DNA of 64,000 nt from Dehalococcoidia bacterium (GTDB taxonomy: Bacteria > Chloroflexota > Dehalococcoidia > Lucifugimonadales > UBA2985): positions 1,863,369-1,927,368 of the forward strand of contig OZ253588.1 in assembly GCA_965263185.1 (NCBI GenBank). The letters are read 5' to 3'. Below, piece by piece: positions 4,813-59,087 of the stretch (the first letter of the stretch is position 1; every line of letters begins with the position of its first letter). The notes beneath the pieces are model-generated. The model saw nothing but the letters and a program-made list of their open reading frames with translations. It was not told the origin of the DNA and did not search any database. The translations under genes and the position numbers were made by a program.

Positions 4813-4883
4813 AGCTGACCCCACCTCAAAATCCTCGAGGTTCTCTACCCCCTCAACTGTCCCATTATCGCTGACAACCTACA
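4813..4883 (-). mobile_element. Orphan IS3-B left end, joined at CC to the 140-bp element
   Basis: Reverse strand reads TGTAGGTTGTCAGCGATAATGGGACA...TTTGAGGTGGGGTCAGCT-CC-ACCTAA. Confidence 0.8.
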
Positions 4884-18929: not shown

Positions 18930-19012
18930 GGTATGGTCACTCACCAAGACTCCAACCGACCTCTTATCTCTCGGGTCTCAGATCTGATGCTCATTATTGA
19001 TGACAACCTACA
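18930..19012 (-). mobile_element. Degenerate orphan IS3-B left end
   Basis: Reverse strand TGTAGGTTGTCATCAATAATGAG..CCCGAGAGA..GAGGT. Confidence 0.65.
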
Positions 19013-33790: not shown

Positions 33791-34260
33791 TGTAGGTTGT
33801 CATCGATAATGGGACAACTCCGCCACCAGTTGCTTGAGTTCTACGTTCTCTCGCCTCAGCCCCTGAACCTCCTGCTGCGTGGCGTCCCGCACCATGTCGC
33901 GGGTCAACCTCTCCCTCCCAGCCTCCATGAACTCCTTCGTCCACGCATAGTAGGAGTGGGGCTTGATCCCCTCACGCCGGCACAGGTCACTCACTGTGAC
34001 CTCCCGGTGGAATCCCTCCAACACGATGCGGATCTTCTCCTCCGACGTGTACTTGCGCCGACTGGCAGCCTTCATCGTCCGCACGAAGGACCTGGTCTCC
34101 TCTGTCCGCTCCTCTGCGTGCACCGCCTTGGCTGTCTCTGTCTGGGACATTGTTGCTCCTCTCTATGAAGTACTCTACCTCATCCAGGGAGCTCACCCAA
34201 CCTCAACTCTCTCGGGTTTTTCTGCCCGTTCCAGTGTCCCATTGTCGCTGACAACCTACA
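33791..34260 (-). mobile_element. 470-bp IS3-B derivative bounded by two left-type IRs, containing truncated orfA (33800-34150)
   Basis: TGTAGGTTGTCATCGATAATGGGACA at 33791 and its inverse ending at 34260. Confidence 0.82.
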
Positions 34261-44604: not shown

Positions 44605-47049
44605 ATGAGAACGCCACGCCTTTTCCTGGGAGTCTTTGCCCTTGCGCTGATTCTTCCGTTGCTGCTGGTGGCCTGCGGCGGCTCCGATGAACCGACAGAT
44701 AGGGCTGTGTCTACCCCAACGCAGGCAGCGGGCGCAACTGAACGGACGCCTTCTACGCCCGCCGAGGCCGACCCGGCTGCGACTACGGCGGCAGTGGCCG
44801 AACCGTCGCCCACGCCTGAGGACACCGCCACGCCGACAACTGCAGTGGCCGAACCGTCGCCCACGCCCAGGGCCACCGCCGTATCCCCGCTGGCACAGAC
44901 CTCGCCCGAAACGGACCGGGAAGCACTGGTCGCCCTCTATAACGCCACCGGCGGCAAAGCCTGGAGGCGCAGCTACAACTGGCTGGGCGACTTGCCGATT
45001 GGCGAGTGGTCTGGCGTCACCACTGACGACAACGGCCGCGTCACCAGACTAGATCTCAGCGATAGCGAGTTGAGCGGGGAGATACCGCCGGAGTTGGGCA
45101 ACCTCGCCAACCTGATTGGGCTGGACATCAGCGATAACGAGTTGAGCGGGGAGATACCGCCGGAGTTGGGCAACCTCGCCAACATGCAAGTGCTGACCCT
45201 TGGCGGGAACCAGTTGAGCGGGGAGATACCGCCGGAGTTGGGCAACCTCGCCAACATGGGAGTGCTGACCCTTGGCGGGAACCAGTTAAGCGGGGAAATA
45301 CCGCCGGAGTTGGGCAACCTCGCCAACCTGATTGGGCTGGGCCTCCATGACAACCAGTTGAGCGGGGAGATACCGCCGGAGTTGGGCAACCTCGCCAACC
45401 TGAAAGGGCTGTGGCTCAACGAAAACCGGTTGGGTGGGGAGATACCGCCGGAGTTGGGCAACCTCGCCAACATGGAAAGCCTGTGGCTCCACGACAACCA
45501 GTTGAGCGGAGAGATACCGCCGTGGTTGAGCGACCTCGCCAACCTGCAATGGCTGCTCCTCCACGACAACCAGTTGAGCGGGGAGATACCGCCGTGGTTG
45601 GGCGACCTCGCCAACCTGATTGGGCTGGGCCTCAACGGGAACGAGTTGAGCGGGTGCGTGCCCAGCAGTTTGTTGGGCCGGTTGGATATGGACAAATCAG
45701 ATCTAGGTGATCTCGAGTTCTGCCCTTGGCTGGCGCAGACCTCGCCCGAAACGGACCGGGAAGCGCTGGTCGCCCTCTATAACGCCACCGGCGGCAAAGC
45801 CTGGAGGCGCAGCTACAACTGGCTGGGCGACTTGCCGATTGGCGAGTGGTCTGGCGTCACCACTGACGACAACGGCCGCGTCACCAGACTAGATCTCAGC
45901 GATAGCGAGTTGAGGGGGGAGATACCTGCGGAGTTGGGAAACCTCGCCAACCTGACATGGCTGAATCTCTACGAGAACGACTTGAACGGGGAGATACCTG
46001 CGGAGCTGGGCAACCTCGCCAACCTGATATGGCTGGACCTCAGCGATAACGAGTTGAGCGGGGAGATTCCGCCGGAGTTGGGCAACCTCGCCAACCTGAT
46101 TGGGCTGGGCCTCCACGATAACGAGTTGAGCGGGGAGATTCCGCCGTGGTTGGGCGACCTCGCCAACCTGATATGGCTGCTCCTCCACGATAACGAGTTG
46201 AGCGGGGAGATACCGCCGGAGTTGGGCAACCTCGCCAACCTGATTGGGCTGGGCCTCGGCAACAACCACTTGAGCGGGTGCGTGCCCAGCAGTTTGTTGG
46301 GCCGGTTGGATATGGACAAATCAGATCTAGGTGATCTCGAGTTCTGCCCTTGGCTGGCGCAGACCTCGCCCGAAACGGACCGGGAAGCGCTGGTCGCCCT
46401 CTATAACGCCACCGGCGGCAAAGCCTGGAGGCGCAGCTACAACTGGCTGGGCGACTTGCCGATTGGCGAGTGGTCTGGCGTCACCACTGACGACAACGGC
46501 CGCGTCACCAGACTAGATCTCAGCGATAGCGAGTTGAGCGGGGAGATACCGCCGGAGTTGGGCAACCTCGCCAACCTGGAACTGCTGGACCTCAGCGATA
46601 ACGAGTTGAGCGGGGAGATACCTGCGGAGCTGGGCAACCTCGCCAACCTGATTGGGCTGGACCTTGGCGGGAACCAGTTGAGCGGGGAGATACCGCCGGA
46701 GTTGGGCAACCTCGCCAACATGCAAGCTCTGTGGCTCCACGAAAACCGGTTGGGTGGGGAGATACCGACGGAGTTGGGCAACCTCACCAACATGCAAGCT
46801 CTGTGGCTCCACGAAAACCGGTTGGGTGGGGAGATACCGCCGTGGTTGGGCGACCTCGCCAACCTGATATGGCTGCTCCTCCACGATAACGAGTTGAGTG
46901 GGGAGATACCGCCGCAGTTGGGCAACCTCGCCAACCTGGGAGTGCTCACCCTTAGCGGGAACGAGTTAAGCGGGTGCGTGCCAAGCAGTTTGTTGGGCCG
47001 GTTGGATATGGACAAATCAGATCTAGGTGATCTCGAGTTCTGCCCTTGA
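44605..47049 (+). CDS. Lipoprotein with three tandem plant-type LRR modules
   Basis: Lipobox LVAC; modules start at 44893, 45733 and 46357, each N-cap, 72-nt LRR units and C-cap DLGDLEFCP. Confidence 0.92.
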   Translation: MRTPRLFLGVFALALILPLLLVACGGSDEPTDRAVSTPTQAAGATERTPSTPAEADPAATTAAVAEPSPTPEDTATPTTAVAEPSPTPRATAVSPLAQTSPETDREALVALYNATGGKAWRRSYNWLGDLPIGEWSGVTTDDNGRVTRLDLSDSELSGEIPPELGNLANLIGLDISDNELSGEIPPELGNLANMQVLTLGGNQLSGEIPPELGNLANMGVLTLGGNQLSGEIPPELGNLANLIGLGLHDNQLSGEIPPELGNLANLKGLWLNENRLGGEIPPELGNLANMESLWLHDNQLSGEIPPWLSDLANLQWLLLHDNQLSGEIPPWLGDLANLIGLGLNGNELSGCVPSSLLGRLDMDKSDLGDLEFCPWLAQTSPETDREALVALYNATGGKAWRRSYNWLGDLPIGEWSGVTTDDNGRVTRLDLSDSELRGEIPAELGNLANLTWLNLYENDLNGEIPAELGNLANLIWLDLSDNELSGEIPPELGNLANLIGLGLHDNELSGEIPPWLGDLANLIWLLLHDNELSGEIPPELGNLANLIGLGLGNNHLSGCVPSSLLGRLDMDKSDLGDLEFCPWLAQTSPETDREALVALYNATGGKAWRRSYNWLGDLPIGEWSGVTTDDNGRVTRLDLSDSELSGEIPPELGNLANLELLDLSDNELSGEIPAELGNLANLIGLDLGGNQLSGEIPPELGNLANMQALWLHENRLGGEIPTELGNLTNMQALWLHENRLGGEIPPWLGDLANLIWLLLHDNELSGEIPPQLGNLANLGVLTLSGNELSGCVPSSLLGRLDMDKSDLGDLEFCP

Positions 47050-47292
47050 GGCCCCGGCTCACCGGGCCTGTCGCCGAGATAAATTCTTTACCATTGTTAA
47101 ACTGTAGGTACGGGCACATCGCTTCGAACACGTACGAGTGAGCGGCGCAACCCCCAGGCGCGGCAGGGGATCGGGTTACAGCAGTTCATGCAGTGCTAGA
47201 CGTTCACGACCCACAGCCCATCAGGACGCCGGAGTCTACGCAAGGTACACGTAGACCTTACGCAGGGGTGGCGTAGAATGGCCCGCTACTCC

Positions 47293-47425
47293 TCACAAGC
47301 CCGCGACCGCGGGAGTCCTTAAGGAGAATGAGCTGCCGCCAACCTCACGGCTCTCGACCCAAACCTCGCCGCCGTGGGCCTGTGCGGTGTGCTTGAGTAT
47401 GACCAGTCCCAGGCCAGTGCCTCCC
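47293..47425 (-). pseudogene. C-terminal HATPase fragment of a histidine kinase
   Basis: [28 protein letters not shown]; truncated by the IS3-B IR at 47429. Confidence 0.72.
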
Positions 47426-47471
47426 TCCTGTAGGTCGTCAGCGATAATGGGACTGCGATAATCCCACCCGG

Positions 47472-47645
47472 GCCACCTCGGCTCGGGCCTGACCCATAAT
47501 GGGACCGGCGCAATGCCCTGAATGTGATCTGTCGACTCGTTCTCGAGGCGGCCCACCAAGCCCACTGACCAGGTGAGAGTGACCTCATAGGAGCGTGGCC
47601 ATAGGCCCCCTCGCAGTCCTGTCCGCTCCCCTGGCCCGCTGGAGC
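47472..47645 (+). ncRNA. Predicted IS110 bridge RNA (target- and donor-binding loops)
   Basis: Guide-like segments at 47496-47505, 47524-47528, 47587-47596 and 47611-47619 match the target and junction sequences; each loop has an inner hairpin and outer stem. Confidence 0.8.
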
Positions 47646-48742
47646 TAATCCAGTCGAGCATGAGGAGAGATCTGTGACAGATACCAACCGCTTGGGCGCT
47701 ACCAGGGTCATTATCGGGGTCGACACACACAGAGACGAACACGTAGCCGTGGCAATTGATTGCCTTGGCGCCTGGCTGGGTCAGCGCCGGCTGCCGTCCG
47801 TTTCCAGTGGCTACGAAGCCCTCCATTGCTGGGCGTCAGGGCTAGGAGATGTAGTTGCCTTCGGAATCGAAGGCACGGGCTCCTACGGAGCAGGACTGTC
47901 AAGGTACCTTGTGAGACGTGGCAGGACCGTCATCGAGGTCAACAGGCCCGACAGGTCCACGCGCCGTAGGCTGGGTAAGAGTGACCCTGTAGATGCTGAG
48001 ATGGCAGCACGGTCTGTCCTCGCTGGAGTAGCCAGGGACTACCCAAAGTCAGGTCTCGACAGTGTGGAGATGATCCGGATGCTCAAGATCGTTAAGGACT
48101 CGGCCATCAAGGCCCGCACCCAGGCCATCAACCAGATTAGGGCGCTTATCGTCACTGCACCTCTGGAACTGAGACACGAGTTGGCCAGTCTCGATGTCTC
48201 CCGGCTTGTGGCTCGCTGTGCCAGGTTTCGACCCGGTCATCTGTCGACGCCGGCAGGGGCGGCCAAGTACTCCCTTCGACTACTGGCCGTCGTCATGGCC
48301 AACTCACCTCTGAGATTGAAGGTGTAAATGACGAGCTGTTACGCCTCACCGCAGAGACGGCTCCAGCATTGGTGGAACTCTTTGGTATCGGACCAGACAC
48401 GGCTGCCACCCTCCTGGTCACCGCAGGAGGCAATCCAGAACGACTGAGGTCTGAGGCTGCGTTCGCTGCCCTGTGTGGCGTGAACCCGGTCCCTGCCTCT
48501 TCAGGCAGGACCAACCGCCATAGACTCAATCGAGGGGGCGACCGCCAGGCCAACGCTGCACTCTATCGCATCGTCCTCGTGCGCCTCCGCTACCATGAGC
48601 CAAGCAAGGAGTATATGGGCCGTCGTACGGGCGAAGGAATGACAAAACCTGAGGTCATCCGTTGCCTCAAACGATACGTCGCTCGTCAGGTCTATTCCAT
48701 CCTGCGCGACATGGGACGCAAGAACCTGGCCGCGGCTGCAAT

Positions 48743-48762
48743 TTGACATGTATAGGAGCATC
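48743..48762 (+). promoter_or_regulatory. -35 half of the IS110 circle-junction promoter
   Basis: TTGACA (48743) joined to the left end gives exactly 17 nt before GATAAT (47457-47462). Confidence 0.78.
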
Positions 48763-49613
48763 ACGAAATGGGGTAGAAAAAGCCGAGAGGTTTGAGGTGT
48801 GGAGAGCTCCCTGGATGAGGTAGAGTACTTCAGAGAGAGGAGCAAAGATGTCCCAGGCAGAAACAACTAAAGCAGAGGCCGCTGAGGAGCGGACGGAGGA
48901 GACCAGGTCCTTCGTGCGAAGAGTCAGGACAGCAACCAGGCGCAAGTACACTCTGGAGGAAAAGATCCGTATGGTGCTGGAGGGGTTCCGCCGGGAGGTC
49001 ACTGTGAGTGACCTGTGCCGCAGGGAAGGTATCAAGCCCCACTCCTACTATGCATGGACCAAGGAGTTCATGGAGGCTGGGAAGGAGCGGTTGACCCGGG
49101 ACGCGGTGCGGGACGCCACGCAGCAGGAGGCACACCAACTCAAGAGAGAGAACGTAGAGCTGAAGCAGTTGGTGGCGGAGTTGTCCCTGGAGAGGTACCG
49201 TCTCAAAAAACGGCCATACCGATACCCCACGCCGACGCCGGTATCAACGGATGAACGCTTTGGAGAAGACGGAGGTACTTGCCAGGGTAGCCTCGTCTTC
49301 CCTGCCCAAGCGGAAGGCGCTGGGTGAGCTTGGAGTGGCCAGGAGCACATACTACCGGTGGCTCAGGCGGAAGGACCAACAAGGCCTTGAGGATGATACA
49401 GGAGGCGGCAAGCCCCCGTGGAACAGACTGACCTCCCGGGAAGTCGACTGCGTTCTGTCGGCAGCAAGGGAGATGCCGGAGCTGAGTTGCCGGCAACTGG
49501 CAGCGTGGACCACCGACAATGTGGGCTTCTCAGCCTCAGAGTATACGGTCTACCGCATCCTTCGGAGGGAGGGCCTGGTGAAGAGGCCTGAGATGCGACT
49601 GGCTGCGGGTAAG

Positions 49614-51318
49614 CCCGAATCCACCGAAGGACACGGATGGGCGGCGTGAGGACCGGAGAAGGGGGATGAGAGAGCTACAGGGGAGATGGCCTGGGCTCGA
49701 TTGGGGTAGATGGGAGGTCGGCGGAGGGACTTCAGTCACCGCACAGGCCCCCAATGGCCGTCTGCGGGAGCTGGGATGCGCGGGATGGCAAGAGAATAGG
49801 CAGCAGGGAACTCCCGCGGAGCTGGTTGGTGCGAGTTGGCGGGGACGTTGGGTCAGTGGCGGAGGGCGCCGTCAGGCTGGGAGTGGAATGGCTCGCAGCC
49901 GGGCCAGGGCGCGACTGAACTGGGTATCCCAGGGCCAGCGCCGGGGAAGATGCAGGGTCAATCGGCGTGCCGAGCGAGTGAGCCGTCCGGCCAAGGCGAA
50001 GACCCGTCGTCTGAGGGTCTTGGTGGTCACGATCTGCTCACCCAGGCCGATGCGGGCTGTCCAGCGGGCCAGGTTGTGTGCCATCACCTGTACCGCCAGC
50101 CAGGCTCCGTTGGCGGCGAAGCGGCCGGACGGCATGTGGTTCAGTCCGACACCGTACTTGAGGTCGCGTATCGCATTCTCGATCTCGGCGTGACGGCGAT
50201 GATCAGCCTCCAGTTCGAGCATCTCCCCATCGCGGTCGGTGATGAAGCCGTGATAGCTGTAGGTGGCGAAGAGGGCCAACTGGGAACCGGGCGTGGGTTT
50301 CACCCGCCGGACGATGAGCCGCACCGGCGCGGCGTCGGGCTCACTCTGGAAGGGGATATAGGTGGTCTCTGCCACATCGGCGGCGCCGTCCATCCAGTAG
50401 GGAATGGGAGTCCAGTCCTCTTCTGGTATGGCCTCGATGACATTGTGCAGGCTTTTGTGCTGGCGGATGGTGATGGAGAAGCGGACATCCATCTTGCGGC
50501 AGACGGATACCACGCTATGAGCGTAGAAGCCGCTGTCGGCCCGCATCGTGAGTTGTCCCCTGGCCCCGGCGTAGCGCACCCGCCCCACCGTCTCACGCAG
50601 GAAGTGGGCGGCGCCGCGGGCGGTGTTGGCCCGGCCCTCGCGCAGCCGGGCCATCAGCACGTCTCCGGTTCCGGCGGCGACGGCCAGCAGCGGGTGATAG
50701 CCCCGCTGACCGGTGTAACCATGGTGGCGCGCCCCTTCCTTGGCCAGTCCATAGGTCTCGCAGATGGTGGAGTCCAGGTCGATGGTCAGGGGCCCGTCGC
50801 CGGGTCCGGCCCCGGCAGCCCAGGCCCGGGCCAGCAACTCCCGGCTAACCCGGTCCAGTTGGCGGACATGGCCCCACCTGAAGCTGCGCAGGAAGGCGCC
50901 CAGGGTGGAGGGAGCCTTAGCCGTGAAACCGAGAACGCGGGCGGTCCCGCCGGCGCGTAGCACATCGGCGTCGTCGATGCAGTCGCCACCGGCCAACGCG
51001 GAGGCCACCAGCGTCATCATCTTGTCACCGGTGTTGGCTCTGCCTTTTGCATGGCCCAGGTCCAGGTGCCGGTCAACCAGTTGGGGCAGGCCAAGGCGCA
51101 GGGCCAGGGTGGACGGAAGAATCAGCCCGGCATTGGCCACCAGGCGGTGATCATCGAAGGCGATGCGGATGCGGTCGGGTTGGTGGCGTGGTAGCATCTA
51201 TTGGGTGCTCCTTTTCCGGGACTGGTTTGCTGTTACAAAACCATTATCCCAGATTCAGAGGAGCACCCTTTGGCCACTTCAGGACGCTGACCCGACGCCC
51301 TCCTTCGGTGGATTCGGG
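49614..51318 (-). mobile_element. IS1380 copy 3 (transposase 49872-51197)
   Basis: TIRs; TSD GTAAG on both sides; inserted in IS3-B orfB. Confidence 0.93.
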
Positions 51319-52080
51319 GTAAGGAGTACCATCGCAAGACCACCGCCCCCACCAGATGTGGGCCACCGACGCCTCCTACTTCAGTGTGGTGGGTTGGGGC
51401 TACTACTACCTGGTCACCGTCATGGACGACTACTCCCGCTTCATCCTGGCTTACAGGCTTCAGCGGGACATGACATCCGACTCCTTCATAGAGGTGGCCC
51501 AGGATGCGGTGGACCGAACGGGCATGGATCTGGTCCCAATAACGGACCGGACCAGGCTGCTGAGCGACAACGGACCGGGTTACGTGTCAAGGGCCTTCAG
51601 GGACTACCTGGGGATGGTGGGCATCAGGCACATCCTGGCAGCCCCTTTCCATCCTCAGACCAACGGCAAGCTGGAGCGCTACCACCAGACCCTCAAGCGG
51701 GACGTGAACCAGTTGCCCTATGAGTTACCCTCGGACCTGGAGGCGGCCATCGTGGCCTTCGTCAGCTACCACAACTACCGGCGCTATCACAAGGCCCTGG
51801 GGAACGTCACACCCTCAGACGTGCTCAGGTGCAGACGCCAGGAGATCCAACGACGCAGAAGGGAGGTGCAGGTGACCTTACCCCCGAAGACAGCACAACA
51901 GGGGAATCTGGGAGCTTACAAGACCTCCATAAAACCCCTGATCTCTCTGGTCTCAAAGTGTGCCATTCTTGCTGGTTGCCAACAGCTCGGGGTCGCAATT
52001 GCAGGACTTCCACATAGAGATCCTGAACCGGAATCTTCTTAAGCTCCCATTGGAAACCGGGGGCAGGACGCGGACTTTCG

Positions 52081-56269: not shown

Positions 56270-58348
56270 CTCAATTAGAACATCTGGATTTTTCCCGCTA
56301 ATTCTAAACTCTCTTATATTATATCTGCGCGTGATAGGGGTTTAACATATACACACACACACAGTTTTACCCTAACCCAGGCGTCTTCTCCCTCCACCAC
56401 CGTCTTTGACAATCACTATCTCAGGGAGCTTGTAGTTCTGCTGCTTACCCCCAATCCACCGAACGGGCGCGTGTGAAAGGCCTCCTGAAGAAGCAAAAGG
56501 GCGCTCCACTGAATCTGGGATAATGGTTTTGTAACAGGAAACCGACCCCAGAAAAGGAGCACCCAATAGATGCTACCACGCAATCACCCTGACCGCATCC
56601 AAGTCGCCTTCGACGATCACCGCCTGGTGGCCAATGCCGGGCTGATTCTTCCGTCCACCCTCGCCCTGCGCCTTGGCCTGCCCCAACTGGTTGACCGGCG
56701 CCTGGACCTGGGCCATGCAAAAGGCAGAGCCAACACCGGTGACAAGATAATGACGCTGGTGGCCTCTGCGTTGGCCGGTGGCGACTGCATCGACGACGCC
56801 GATGCGCTGCGAGCCGGTGGGACGGCCGGTGTTCTCGACTGCCTGGTCAAGGCTCCCTCCACACTGGGCGCCTTCCTGCGCAGCTTCAGGTGGGGCCACG
56901 TCCGCCAACTGGACCGGGTGAGCCGCGAGTTGCTGGCACGGGCATGGCAGGCCGGAGCCGGACCCGGCGACGCACCCTTAACTATCGACCTCGATTCCAC
57001 CGTCTGCGAGACCTACGGACTGGACAAGGAAGGGGCGCGACACCATGGTTACACCGGCAAGCGGGGCTATCACCCGCTGCTGGCCGTCGCCGCCGGAACC
57101 GGAGACGTGCTGATGGCCCGCCTGCGCGAGGGCCGCGCCAACACTGCCCGCGGCGCTGCCCACTTCCTGCGTGAGACGGTGGGGCGGGTGCGCTACGCCG
57201 GAGCCAGGGGACAACTCACGGCGCGGGCCGACAGCGGCTTCTACGCTCATAGCGTGGTATCCGTCTGCCGCAAGATGGATGTCCGCTTCTCCATCACCCT
57301 CCGCCAGCACAAAAGCCTGCACAATGTCATCGAGGCCATACCTGAAGATGCCTGGACGCCGATTCCCTACTGGATGGACGGCGCCGCCGATGTGGCAGAG
57401 ACCACCTATATCCCCTTCCAGAGTGAGCCCGACGCCGCGCCGGTGCGGCTCATCGTCCGGCGGGTGAAGCCCACGCCCGGTTCCCAGTTGGCCATCTTCG
57501 CCACCTACAGCTATCACGGCTTCATCACCGACCGCGATGGGGAGATGCTCGAACTGGAGGCCGATCATCGCCGTCACGCCGAGATCGAGAATGCGATACG
57601 CGACCTCAAGTACGGTGTCGGACTGAACCACATGCCGTCCGGCCGCTTCGCCGCCAACGGCGCCTGGCTGGCAGTACAGGTGATGGCGCACAACCTGGCC
57701 CGCTGGACAGCCCGCATCGGCCTGGGTCAGCAGATCGTGACCACCAAGACCCTCAGACGACGGGTCTTTGCCTTGGCCGGACGGATCACCCGCTCGGCAC
57801 GCCGATTGACCCTGCATCTTCCCCGGCGCTGGCCCTGGGAGGAGCAGTTCAGCCGCGCCCTGGCCCGGCTGCGAGCCATTCCACTCCCAGCTTGACGGCG
57901 CCCTTCTGCCACTGACCCGTCATCCAACCCAACGTCCCCGCCAACTCGCGCCAGTCCGGTCCGCGAGCGCCTCTTGCCGTGTCCTATCCCGCCATCTCCC
58001 TCGCCACAGCCACTGTAAGCCGCCATCGGCGCCCCCAAAAGCGCCTGCGACCGCCGCCAACCTCCCATCTACCCGAATTCGAGCCCGGACCATCGCTTCT
58101 GTAACTTCCTCACCCTCCTTCCAGTGTCCTCACGCCGTCCATCAGTGTCCATCGGTGGATTCGGGCTTACCCTCAGCGCGGCGAGAGGCGCGCCGCCTCT
58201 GTCCAGTCTTGCGCTCCTGTTGGGCCTTGGCCTGCTGCTCAAGAATCTTCTGCCATCGCTCATCTAACTCATCCGAATGTGAGCCGTTTTCGGACATATT
58301 CACACACGCTGCGCGCTCAGGCATATTCACACACGCCGCGTCACTCAT
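56270..58348 (-). repeat. Module copy X (arm only), ORF split by IS1380 copy 5
   Basis: ORF halves 58348-58166 and 56448-56372; CA tract at 56351; AGATATAATATAAGAGAGTTT. Confidence 0.82.
56449..58165 (+). mobile_element. IS1380 copy 5 (transposase 56570-57895)
   Basis: TIRs; TSD CTTAC on both sides. Confidence 0.93.
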
Positions 58349-59087
58349 CGCCGGGTGAGCGGCGGCGCTTCATCTCGCCGCGGAGAGCGGCTGAGACTTG
58401 GGAATCACGCGCTCTTGCTTGACGCCGTCGTAGGGTGCGGGTGCACCTCTGCGGGTCGCCCTCCCTCCTCATCTTTGCCTTCAGCCCTCTGGAGCCCTCT
58501 GGAGCCGTTGGCCCCTAGCGGCTAGCGGGACGTCTAGGGGATGTCAGGACGTTGGCCGTCCCCGTGGCTGAGGCCCTGTTTGGGCTGCTAGCGACGTGAG
58601 CAAAGGGCGCCAATAACGCCCGTACAGCCCCTCTGAAGGTGCAACCAACTCCCCCCCCCCCAAATACTACCCAGGGCCCCATCCACGCCCTCCGTGCCAG
58701 CGATGCGCCAGCTGCGGGCATTCCAGCAATGTCCCGAGGGCCCGATCCGCGACCTGCCGTATCAAGCGCCTGCAAGTTGCCTTGAACTTGGTGGCGCCCA
58801 AGAGGCCGGTACATTTCACGGCTGTTTCCTCATGGTCAGCGGGATCGGCTCCTGCCAAGAGATAGTACAGGACTGCGAGAGGGTCAATGGCTACGCCCTA
58901 TCAGGTCACCGCTCATCCGATCGGTAGGCTCGGCTGGCGCTTCTAAGAGAACGAGTCGTCAGAACACCAGAATGGCGCTGGGCCAGTGTAATCTGGAGTG
59001 GAACCCGAGCCGGAGGGGGCACGATTGAGATTATCCCAGTCCCCCCGCCTGACGGCCCAAGGTCTCCGCCCTCTCCATTTCCGCGGG

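What the first reader, a model, noticed from the sequence alone, without database searches (positions are those of the whole stretch)
47444..48764. IS110 with a readable bridge RNA programmed against the terminal repeat of another IS
Seen: the element sits in the inner edge of the IS3-B IRL. Its 5' non-coding end contains ATAATGGGAC (47496), identical to the left target flank (47444-47453), and ATAGGAGCGT (47587), matching its own right end ATAGGAGCAT (48752). It also contains TCGCAGTCC (47611), the reverse complement of the left junction GGACTGCGA, and GTGAT (47524), the reverse complement of the right junction ATCAC. Each guide pair flanks a small hairpin within an outer stem. Known: this is the target/donor-loop architecture, including handshake-type pairing, of IS110 bridge RNAs (Durrant et al. 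2024). Inference: an RNA-guided recombinase parasitising IS3-B, apparently with a non-identical core (donor CT, target CA). Unused ATAATGGGAC targets remain at 4860-4869 and 33806-33815.
Basis: partly seen in the sequence, partly recalled or inferred. Interest (0 to 1): 0.82.

Follow-up and report, generated by a model that had tools for sequence, protein, structure and literature searches.

The report
Dead RNA-guided IS110 inside IS3 end

Summary
A 1309-bp IS110-family element (47454-48762) lies 25 nt inside the left terminal repeat of a 1.5-kb IS3-like element (47429-51984). Its 220-nt 5' non-coding end encodes a two-loop bridge RNA. In 24 Dehalococcoidia relatives the fold is kept: 95.6% of cells are paired, against 35-48% when partners are slid. 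Across 45 distinct insertions the left and right target guides covary with the real flanks, beating all 2000 shuffles. The donor guides match the element's own ends. The 3' arm of each loop reads across the finished junction, as handshake guides do. The right end carries TTGACA and the left end GATAAT; in a circle they would lie 17 nt apart and form a junction promoter.

This copy is a pseudogene with a private 1-nt deletion. The genome holds no intact copy, only about a dozen remnants at the same site. Five or six IS3 ends carry a 4-nt GCAT footprint.

One family-wide oddity stands out. Donor and target share only a C at the crossover; the next base is always T in the donor and free in the target. 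Overall this is a new member of a known kind, of moderate-to-low interest.

The parts
47429..47453 (+). Outer 25 nt of the left terminal repeat of the IS3-like host element (TGTAGGTCGTCAGCGATAATGGGAC). This is the left target; its last base, C, is the crossover base.
   Evidence: Uninterrupted sister copies read TGTAGGTTGTCAGCGA(C/T)AATGGGAC|ACAAAATGGGGTAG. The sequences upstream of TGTAGG are unrelated between copies.
47454..48762 (+). IS110-family insertion sequence, 1309 bp. It has no terminal inverted repeats and a long 5' non-coding end. Only 16 nt follow the stop codon.
   Evidence: Conserved ends TGCGAT.AT ... TTGACAT.TATAGGAGCATC in 60+ relatives. A metagenome contig joins 47452 to 48762, skipping 1309 bases. 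Flanks are colinear with empty sites.
47457..47462 (+). GATAAT, preceded by TGC: a -10 box (extended -10). With the IS3 repeat's TCGTCA (47435) it forms a weak hybrid promoter in the integrated state.
   Evidence: One search finds TCGTCA-16 nt-GATAAT, 9 of 12 matches, with TG before it. Positions 1-6, 8 and 9 of the left end are invariant in 24 relatives.
47468..47634 (+). Structured core of the bridge RNA gene. The closing stem is 47468-72/47630-34. The long stem 47473-87/47536-51 leads into the target-binding loop.
   Evidence: RNAalifold and pair counts on 24 relatives give 95.6% paired cells, 7 pairs with compensatory changes, and 35-48% paired in slid controls.
47490..47534 (+). Target-binding loop. 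Outer stem TGAC/GTCG; 5' arm with the left target guide; hairpin GGCGCAATGCC (47507-17); 3' arm with the right target guide and handshake.
47496..47505 (+). Left target guide ATAATGGGAC, identical to the top strand of the left target and so pairing with its bottom strand.
   Evidence: 10 of 10 match here. It covaries with the left flank in relatives, for example GCAGTGCGAC, TTCTGAGAC, ATTCAAGAC.
47521..47528 (+). AATGT is the right target guide and expects ACATT after the crossover C. G at 47526 pairs with the crossover C. AT at 47527-28 is the handshake guide, complementary to the last AT of the element's right end.
   Evidence: The reverse complement of the 3' arm is ATC-ACATT, against the right junction ATC-ACGAA (2 of 5 plus one wobble). 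In relatives the same five positions track the right flank, mean 3.5 of 5 against 2.4 when shuffled. GAT is invariant.
47575..47628 (+). Donor-binding loop. Outer stem GAGAGTGAC/GTCCGCTC; 5' arm with the left donor guide; hairpin GGCCATAGGCC (47597-607); 3' arm with the right donor guide and handshake.
   Evidence: It mirrors the target loop motif by motif: YTGACC...YGGC...GCC...G(A/T)(T/C)CTGTC.
47587..47596 (+). Left donor guide ATAGGAGCGT, against the right end ATAGGAGCAT (48752-61). The one difference allows a G-T wobble.
   Evidence: The guide's ATAGGAGC is nearly invariant in relatives.
47611..47619 (+). TCGCA is the right donor guide and pairs with the left end TGCGA. G at 47616 pairs with the crossover C. 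TCC is the handshake guide, complementary to GGA of the target.
   Evidence: Reverse complement of the left junction GGACTGCGA. The handshake position opposite target position -3 covaries with the target guide: A:U 18, G:C 15, other 12.
47674..48746 (+). Recombinase pseudogene (DEDD RuvC-like N-domain plus Tnp domain), broken by a 1-nt deletion at about 48286-48288.
   Evidence: PF01548 hits 47674-48327 and PF02371 hits the next frame. Alignment with the 93% copy. Read-through translation. The joined protein scores 165.8 bits on NF033542. Other metagenomes carry an extra base after 48286.
48743..48748 (+). TTGACA, a -35 box in the right end. In a circular form it would lie 17 nt upstream of the left-end GATAAT, forming a junction promoter.
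   Evidence: Sequence. TTGACA is present at the same place in nearly all relatives' right ends. The spacing is counted from the sequence; promoter function is inferred by analogy with IS621 (PMC11208160, PMC11208158).
48752..48762 (+). Right end ATAGGAGCATC, the left donor sequence ending in the crossover C.
   Evidence: Invariant in relatives, followed by variable flank.
48763..51984 (+). Rest of the IS3-like host element. It contains the right target ACGAAATGGGG, orfA at 48848-49327, and an orfB fragment from 49251. It is interrupted by a DDE_Tnp_1_4 (IS1380-like) transposase gene at 49872-51197 (minus strand). The right terminal repeat tip is at 51984.
   Evidence: Pfam hits HTH_Tnp_1 and HTH_32. 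An intact sister copy has orfB with rve and rve_3, and scores just below the IS481 and IS3 cutoffs. The right repeat reads TGTTGGCAACCAGCAAGAATGGCACAC.

Best explanation
The region 47454-48762 is a decayed copy of an IS110-family (IS110 subgroup) insertion sequence. It reached this place by bridge-RNA-guided recombination.

How it most likely worked:
- A circular form of the element joins the right end (TTGACA) to the left end (GATAAT) 17 nt apart. This makes a promoter that transcribes the roughly 170-nt bridge RNA and the recombinase gene.
- The RNA folds into two pseudo-symmetric internal loops.
- The first loop binds the terminal repeat of an IS3-like element. Its 5' arm (AUAAUGGGAC) pairs with the bottom strand left of the crossover. 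Its 3' arm pairs with the top strand right of it.
- The second loop binds the circle junction in the same way (AUAGGAGCGU and UCGCA).
- The recombinase exchanges strands at a shared C.
- The bases just 3' of each right-hand guide (AU, UCC) are complementary to the partner DNA, so pairing increases after strand exchange (handshake).
- The result is a 1309-bp insertion 25 nt inside the IS3 repeat, in the same direction as the IS3 orfA.

What is shown: the family assignment, the boundaries, the conserved fold, the guide-flank covariation and the site specificity. What is inferred by analogy with IS621: promoter use, RNA expression and the chemistry.

The copy cannot move by itself now. It carries a frameshift, and no intact paralogue exists in the genome.
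For: Family assignment.

Boundaries and empty sites.

Site specificity within the genome: a second near-full copy, one partial copy and about ten 5' remnants all begin right after ...AATGGGAC of an IS3-like repeat.

Fold: 95.6% of cells are paired, against 35-48% in slid controls. There are compensatory changes, for example pair 23-97 with CG 13 and UA 9.

Target guides: across 45 distinct insertions from about 20 Dehalococcoidia genomes, mean identity of the left flank to the left guide is 5.5 of 8, against 3.7 shuffled (maximum 4.5). For the right flank and right guide it is 3.5 of 5, against 2.4 shuffled (maximum 2.9). No shuffle out of 2000 reaches the observed values.

Donor guides and handshake.

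Promoter parts are conserved.

An intact 92%-identical orthologue sits at the same IS3 target in another MAG, L024.

The architecture matches the published description of IS621: loops, guide strands, handshake guides 3' of the right-hand guides, and a junction promoter (PMC11208160; PMC11208158; PMC13626964).
Against: There is no direct evidence that this RNA is made. Metatranscriptome contigs cover related copies only weakly, at 90-95% identity, and could include DNA carry-over.

The right target guide fits this site poorly: 2 of 5 plus a wobble.

The donor-loop outer stem of this lineage lacks one base that the relatives have.

Rfam 15 has no matching family, so no curated model could be applied.

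Single-sequence folding is no better than shuffles, z = -1.0.

The left guides do not cover the second 'core' base as they do in IS621.
Confidence: 0.9

Rival explanations
1. The internal ATAATGGGAC and the other matches are leftovers of nested insertions: a scrap of an IS3 repeat carried inside the IS110 end. On this view they are not RNA guides, and the site preference is protein-determined.
For: The left end of the element (GCGATAATCCCAC) resembles the IS3 repeat (GCGATAATGGGAC). The genome is full of nested IS fragments.
Against: Relatives with unrelated targets carry, at the same loop position, the sequence of their own flank. The segment sits in a conserved two-loop fold. The family model is named as RNA-guided.
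Confidence: 0.03
2. The copy is still mobile as a non-autonomous element. Its ends and bridge RNA are nearly intact, so a related recombinase supplied in trans could move it.
For: The ends, the promoter parts and most of the RNA fold are intact. In another MAG, elements with one type of target loop sit in sites that match a co-resident element's loop. This suggests that RNA or protein acts in trans on shared donor ends. Other sponge-metagenome populations carry copies without the frameshift.
Against: tblastn of the whole genome finds no intact paralogue, only broken or truncated ones. The two near-full copies differ by 7% and each has its own frameshift, which indicates long inactivity.
Confidence: 0.1
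3. The element follows the IS621 scheme exactly, with a 2-nt CT core in both partners. The CT/CA difference between the two junctions then arises from a heteroduplex that is always resolved the same way, or from later mutation.
For: The donor keeps C-T. The right donor guide pairs with both bases (AG). The handshake positions lie exactly where they would with a (C,T) core.
Against: The base after the left-junction C is T in 45 of 45 insertions. The base after the right-junction C is A, C, G or T and agrees with the right target guide in 33 of 45. The 26 empty sites in this genome have A, never T, after the C. Random heteroduplex resolution would give the reciprocal pattern in half the insertions, yet none is seen.
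Confidence: 0.3

Closest known systems
IS621 of Escherichia coli and its bridge RNA (Durrant et al. 2024, PMC11208160; Hiraizumi et al. 2024, PMC11208158)
   Same: DEDD plus Tnp recombinase. RNA encoded in the long left end. Two pseudo-symmetric loops, each with a 5' guide for the bottom strand and a 3' guide for the top strand. Handshake bases 3' of the right-hand guides. A -35 box in the right end and a -10 box in the left end that meet in the circle. A C at the crossover and T after it in the donor.
   Different: The target is a transposon end, not a REP element. The left target guide is 10 nt and stops at the C. The left donor guide stops one base before the C. The base after the C need not be T in the target. 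There is no local 5' stem-loop; instead a long stem encloses the target loop. The host is a sponge-associated Dehalococcoidia genome.
[quoted passage not shown]
   Same: An IS110-superfamily element that homes to a fixed position inside the terminal repeat of another transposable element.
   Different: Those elements are IS1111-type, with sub-terminal inverted repeats and the guide RNA (seekRNA) 3' of the gene. Their target is a Tn3-family repeat. The present element is IS110-type, with the RNA 5' of the gene, and targets an IS3-like repeat.
   Same: IS110-family elements that parasitise the ends of other insertion sequences.
   Different: Different hosts, different guide sequences, and a different position in the repeat (base 25 here, base 9 in e1-5186535).
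ISPpu9 / ISPpu10 of Pseudomonas putida (PMC12288879; bioRxiv 10.64898/2026.03.19.712850)
   Same: IS110-family elements with many copies at one repeated genomic sequence.
   Different: Those target REP or intergenic repeats rather than another IS.

Membership tests
IS110 family (IS110 subgroup) insertion sequence | Recombinase with an N-terminal DEDD RuvC-like domain and a C-terminal Tnp (serine) domain | tested here: met
   PF01548 E = 3e-17 and PF02371 E = 5e-20. NF033542 scores 165.8 bits against a cutoff of 140 on the read-through protein. The gene is frameshifted.
IS110 family (IS110 subgroup) insertion sequence | Long non-coding left end and short right end, with no terminal or sub-terminal inverted repeats (this separates it from the IS1111 subgroup) | tested here: met
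   220 nt lie before the GTG at 47674 and 16 nt after the stop at 48746. The ends TGCGATAAT and GGAGCATC are not inverted copies of each other.
IS110 family (IS110 subgroup) insertion sequence | Site-specific insertion without a multi-base target duplication | tested here: met
   All copies and remnants follow ...AATGGGAC. Empty sites read GGGAC|AC..., so only the C is common to both junctions.
Bridge RNA (IS110-type guide RNA) | Two internal loops, each with a central hairpin inside an outer stem, conserved across orthologues | tested here: met
   35 pairs, 95.6% of cells paired, 7 pairs with compensatory change, slid controls 35-48%. RNAalifold found the target loop on its own. The donor-loop stem was drawn by analogy and hardly varies.
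Bridge RNA (IS110-type guide RNA) | The first-loop arms match the left target (same sense) and the right target (reverse complement), and covary with them | tested here: met
   observed means exceed all 2000 shuffles. In this copy the left side is 10 of 10 and the right side 2 of 5 plus a wobble.
Bridge RNA (IS110-type guide RNA) | The second-loop arms match the element's own right end (same sense) and left end (reverse complement) | tested here: met
   ATAGGAGCGT against ATAGGAGCAT, and TCGCA against TGCGA. The ends are invariant in the clade, so there is identity but no covariation.
Bridge RNA (IS110-type guide RNA) | Handshake guides: bases 3' of each right-hand guide are complementary to the other DNA partner | tested here: met
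   AU pairs with donor AT, and this is invariant. UCC pairs with target GGA. The position opposite target -3 covaries: 33 of 45 complementary. Definition from PMC11208158.
Bridge RNA (IS110-type guide RNA) | An identical 2-nt core (CT) in donor and target, covered by all four guides | tested here: not met
   The donor has C-T and targets have C-A/C/G/T. The left target guide stops at the C, and the left donor guide stops before it. The system works like IS621, but this detail differs.
Bridge RNA (IS110-type guide RNA) | The RNA is expressed from a promoter rebuilt at the circle junction and is bound by the recombinase | not testable with these tools
   Promoter parts are present and conserved, with 17-nt spacing. 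Only weak metatranscriptome contigs of relatives were found.
Rfam family for bridge RNA | Match to a curated covariance model | tested here: inconclusive
   No relevant hit up to E = 10 in Rfam 15. The library may simply hold no such family.
IS3 family (host element) | orfA (HTH) plus orfB (HTH and rve DDE integrase), with TG... terminal inverted repeats | tested here: inconclusive
   orfA hits HTH_Tnp_1; orfB hits rve and rve_3. The sister copy is 1544 bp with imperfect repeats beginning TGT. NCBIfam scores fall just below both the IS481 cutoff (190 against 224) and the IS3 cutoff (153 against 160). 'IS3-like' is the safe name.

The most novel reading that the evidence does not exclude
In this Dehalococcoidia clade of bridge recombinases, donor and target need to share only a single C at the crossover. 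The next base is fixed as T in the donor. In the target it is free (A, C, G or T) and is read by the right target guide.

This implies one of three things: a strand-exchange register or stagger different from the 2-nt CT core of IS621; a single-strand transfer; or a strictly biased resolution. Either way, these would be natural bridge recombinases with a relaxed core requirement.
Probability: 0.4. Interest if true: 0.55.

Novelty: new member of a known kind. Interest (0 to 1): 0.3.

Why it matters
This is a clean natural example of an IS110-type bridge RNA whose four guides and handshake bases can be read directly from the junctions, and it comes from a little-studied phylum (sponge-associated Dehalococcoidia). 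It shows one insertion sequence homing to both terminal repeats of another.

It adds no new mechanism. Its practical value lies in two things:
- The clade offers dozens of natural guide-target pairs and intact orthologues for testing.
- The clade-wide use of targets whose second 'core' base differs from the donor's could relax a design constraint of bridge recombinases, if confirmed biochemically.

The recurrent GCAT footprints in IS3 ends hint at a history of loss. Such loss would leave the IS3 repeat no longer matching the guide.

Tried and rejected
1. Rfam scan of 47000-49200 at E up to 10 gave only two chance snoRNA-like hits.

2. Single-sequence folding of 47454-47673 and 47462-47650 gave z = -1.0 and was uninformative in this G+C-rich sequence. 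The comparative fold was used instead.

3. A 2-nt 'AC' core duplicated at both junctions was rejected. Empty sites read GGGAC|AC..., and the right junction is GCATC|AC, not ...ACAC.

4. I considered that 'GAGCATCAC' in some IS3 ends means the true target contains GCATC. This was rejected because relatives with unrelated targets all end in ATAGGAGCATC. These ends are read as footprints instead.

5. For two loci, an IS3 tip follows the bridge-RNA gene at the same base. I looked in the genome for the other halves and found none. A single old event copied as a composite is the simpler reading, rather than reciprocal targeting.

6. RNA evidence: metatranscriptome contigs lie only on related copies and at low depth. 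This was not used as support for expression of this copy.

7. I did not build a covariance model. It would only re-find its own training sequences.
Full report
**Observation.**
- ATAATGGGAC at 47444-53 and again at 47496-505.
- ATAGGAGCGT at 47587-96, against ATAGGAGCAT at 48752-61.
- TCGCAGTCC at 47611-19, the reverse complement of the left junction GGACTGCGA at 47450-58.
- GTGAT at 47524-28, the reverse complement of ATCAC at 48760-64.

ATAGGAGCRT occurs nowhere else in the window, where 0.10 matches are expected by chance. The exact ATAATGGGAC occurs four times: three IS3-like ends plus the internal copy.

**The element.**
The ORFs at 47674-48327 and 48369-48746 hit PF01548 (DEDD_Tnp_IS110) and PF02371 (Transposase_20). 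Alignment with a 93% copy elsewhere in the genome shows a 1-nt deletion near 48288 in the window copy and a separate 2-nt insertion in the other copy. Reading across the deletion gives a 357-aa protein. That protein passes NCBIfam NF033542, 'IS110 family RNA-guided transposase', at 165.8 bits against a cutoff of 140.

The whole-genome tblastn finds no intact paralogue. Contigs from other sponge metagenomes carry an extra base at 48286, so the frameshift is private to this lineage. A 92% orthologue with an open 357-aa frame sits in another Dehalococcoidia MAG at the same kind of site.

**The site.**
The flank TGTAGGTCGTCAGCGATAATGGGAC (47429-53) is the tip of an IS3-like element. Uninterrupted copies read TGTAGGTTGTCAGCGA(C/T)AATGGGAC|ACAAAATGGGGTAGGAAAAGCCGAGAGG. 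This is colinear with the window's left flank plus its right flank from 48763. A metagenome contig also joins 47452 to 48762, skipping 1309 bases.

An intact sister element is 1544 bp. It has orfA (HTH_Tnp_1), orfB (HTH plus rve and rve_3) and imperfect terminal repeats. It scores just under both the IS481 and the IS3 cutoffs, so I call it IS3-like. In the window the host runs from 47429 to 51984. It is also broken by a DDE_Tnp_1_4 transposase gene at 49872-51197.

Elsewhere in the genome, a second near-full copy, a 3' fragment and about ten 5' remnants of the IS110 all begin directly after ...AATGGGAC of such a repeat. This holds in the left repeat and in those right repeats that read GGGAC.

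**The bridge RNA.**
I fetched 80 related loci from about 20 Dehalococcoidia MAGs and one actinomycete. Their left ends are invariant (TGCGAT.AT) and their right ends read TTGACAT.TATAGGAGCATC, followed by unrelated flank.

An alignment of 24 distinct left ends folds into a long stem that encloses a loop with a central 3-4-bp hairpin. A second loop repeats the first, motif by motif. Counting pairs for this two-loop structure gives 95.6% of cells paired, against 35-48% when partners are slid, with 7 pairs showing compensatory change.

The window coordinates of all parts were derived from the alignment.

| Part | Target loop | Donor loop |
|---|---|---|
| Outer stem | 47490-93 / 47531-34 | 47575-83 / 47621-28 |
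| Left guide | 47496-505 | 47587-96 |
| Central hairpin | 47507-17 | 47597-607 |
| Right guide, C-pairing G, handshake | 47521-28 | 47611-19 |

**Guides.**
In relatives the segment homologous to 47496-505 equals each element's own left flank. Examples are GCAGTGCGAC, TTCTGAGAC, ATTCAAGAC and CGCGTCAAC. The five bases homologous to 47521-25 are the reverse complement of each element's own right flank.

Over 45 distinct insertions the mean matches are 5.5 of 8 on the left and 3.5 of 5 on the right. Shuffled pairings give 3.7 and 2.4, and none of 2000 shuffles reaches the observed means.

The window copy matches its left target 10 of 10. It matches its right target only 2 of 5 plus one G-U wobble.

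The donor guides match the element's own ends. The bases 3' of the right-hand guides pair with the other partner: AU with donor AT, and UCC with target GGA. One of these positions covaries with the target guide, with 33 of 45 complementary.

This is the arrangement described for IS621: 5' arms pair with the bottom strand, 3' arms pair with the top strand, and handshake guides favour insertion.

**Promoter.**
TTGACA at 48743-48 and GATAAT at 47457-62 would be 17 nt apart in a circle joined at the C. Both are conserved in relatives.

In the integrated state the IS3 repeat supplies TCGTCA 16 nt upstream; other copies have TTGTCA. Use of either promoter is inferred, not shown.

**The 'core'.**
The base after the left-junction C is T in 45 of 45 insertions. 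The base after the right-junction C varies and agrees with the right target guide in 33 of 45. All 26 empty sites in this genome have A there.

So donor and target share only the C. The left target guide stops at that C, and the left donor guide stops one base before it. This differs from IS621, where a CT core is conserved in both partners and covered by the guides.

The cause cannot be decided from sequence. It could be a different cleavage register, single-strand transfer (compare the copy-out models in bioRxiv 2025.10.25.684509 and 2026.08.31.748434), or biased resolution.

**State in this genome.**
A classification of IS3-like repeat ends gave about 26 empty ends, at least 12 ends with an IS110 or a remnant, and 5-6 ends reading GGGA-GCAT-CA. 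The last class is the target with the last four bases of the IS110 right end inserted. One of these is in the window at 18987-18990.

GCATCA has a background frequency of 2.8e-4 per position, so about 0.1 such cases are expected by chance. One scarred end has an unscarred duplicate with the same outside flank. I read these as footprints of lost copies, a deletion between the GGA of the target and the GGA of ATAGGAGC. The process that made them is unknown.

**Comparison and verdict.**
Homing of this superfamily to other transposons' repeats is documented: IS4321/IS5075 into Tn21-type repeats, as cited in PMC11187229. The same kind of finding has turned up before in this scan.

The element is a new member of a known kind. 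It is a dead copy, and the clade-wide single-C crossover is the one feature worth a bench test.

Noticed in passing
window 58783-59043 (minus strand): A second, roughly 70%-identical remnant of an IS110 left end: the bridge-RNA region and the first codons only. It follows a degenerate IS3-like repeat (GGCCGTCAGGCGGGGGGAC|TGGGATAAT). Its left-guide segment (CAGATTACAC) does not match its flank.
   Followed up: partly
window 18987-19012 (minus strand); also genome C1:255338, 1353206, 1385125, 2440875, 1583687: IS3-like repeat ends that read ...GA-GCAT-CA..., the IS110 target with the last four bases of the IS110 right end inserted. There are 5-6 cases against about 0.1 expected. One (C1:1353206) has an unscarred duplicate with an identical outside flank (C1:299142). 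These are probable footprints of lost IS110 copies, and they would break the match to the guide.
   Followed up: partly
genome C1:248924-249030 and C1:1387178-1387275 (outside the window): In two diverged loci the IS110 left end stops at exactly the same base, after the right target guide ...GTG, and is followed by the tip (TGTAGG/TGTAAG) of another IS3-like element. No matching other half exists in the genome. This is either an old composite that spread by using the outer repeat, or a preferred IS3 insertion point inside the bridge-RNA gene.
   Followed up: partly
genome C1:716538-716691 (L006); also a metatranscriptome contig in run X26: A miniature derivative. The left end and target loop run up to the left donor guide ATAGCAGC, which is fused directly to the right-end ...GCATC and the flank. 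A deletion between the donor guide and the identical right end would produce this. The guide-donor identity makes a built-in direct repeat.
   Followed up: no
loci L041-L085 (MAG CBDCXW01...): One genome holds three element types with identical donor ends but different target loops: TTTCTGAGAC/AGGCT, CTTCGAGGAC/CGGTT and GTAGTGGGAC/ACGAG. Many copies sit in a site that matches another type's loop, and one copy has a hybrid loop. This is consistent with bridge RNAs acting in trans on any circle that shares the donor ends, and with recombination between elements.
   Followed up: partly
window 47308-47428 (minus strand): The C-terminal HATPase_c part of a histidine kinase gene (E = 1e-7), cut off by the IS3-like insertion at 47429. 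The 177-aa ORF listed there runs on into the IS by chance.
   Followed up: yes
window 49872-51197 (minus strand) and 56570-57895 (plus strand): Two copies of a 441-aa DDE_Tnp_1_4 (IS1380-like) transposase gene. The first interrupts orfB of the IS3-like host, giving three insertion sequences nested in one another.
   Followed up: partly
window 4859-4883 (minus strand), 33791-33815 (plus strand), 34260 (minus strand), 34851 (plus strand), 15111 (plus strand), 18757 (minus strand): Further IS3-like repeat ends in the window that carry the target or near-target (GGGAC|A..., GGCAC|A...) and are unoccupied. The window lies in an IS-dense region.
   Followed up: partly
runs X1-X37: The sequence and its relatives occur in sponge metagenomes and metatranscriptomes from several host species, so the genome is probably a sponge-associated Dehalococcoidia.
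   Followed up: no
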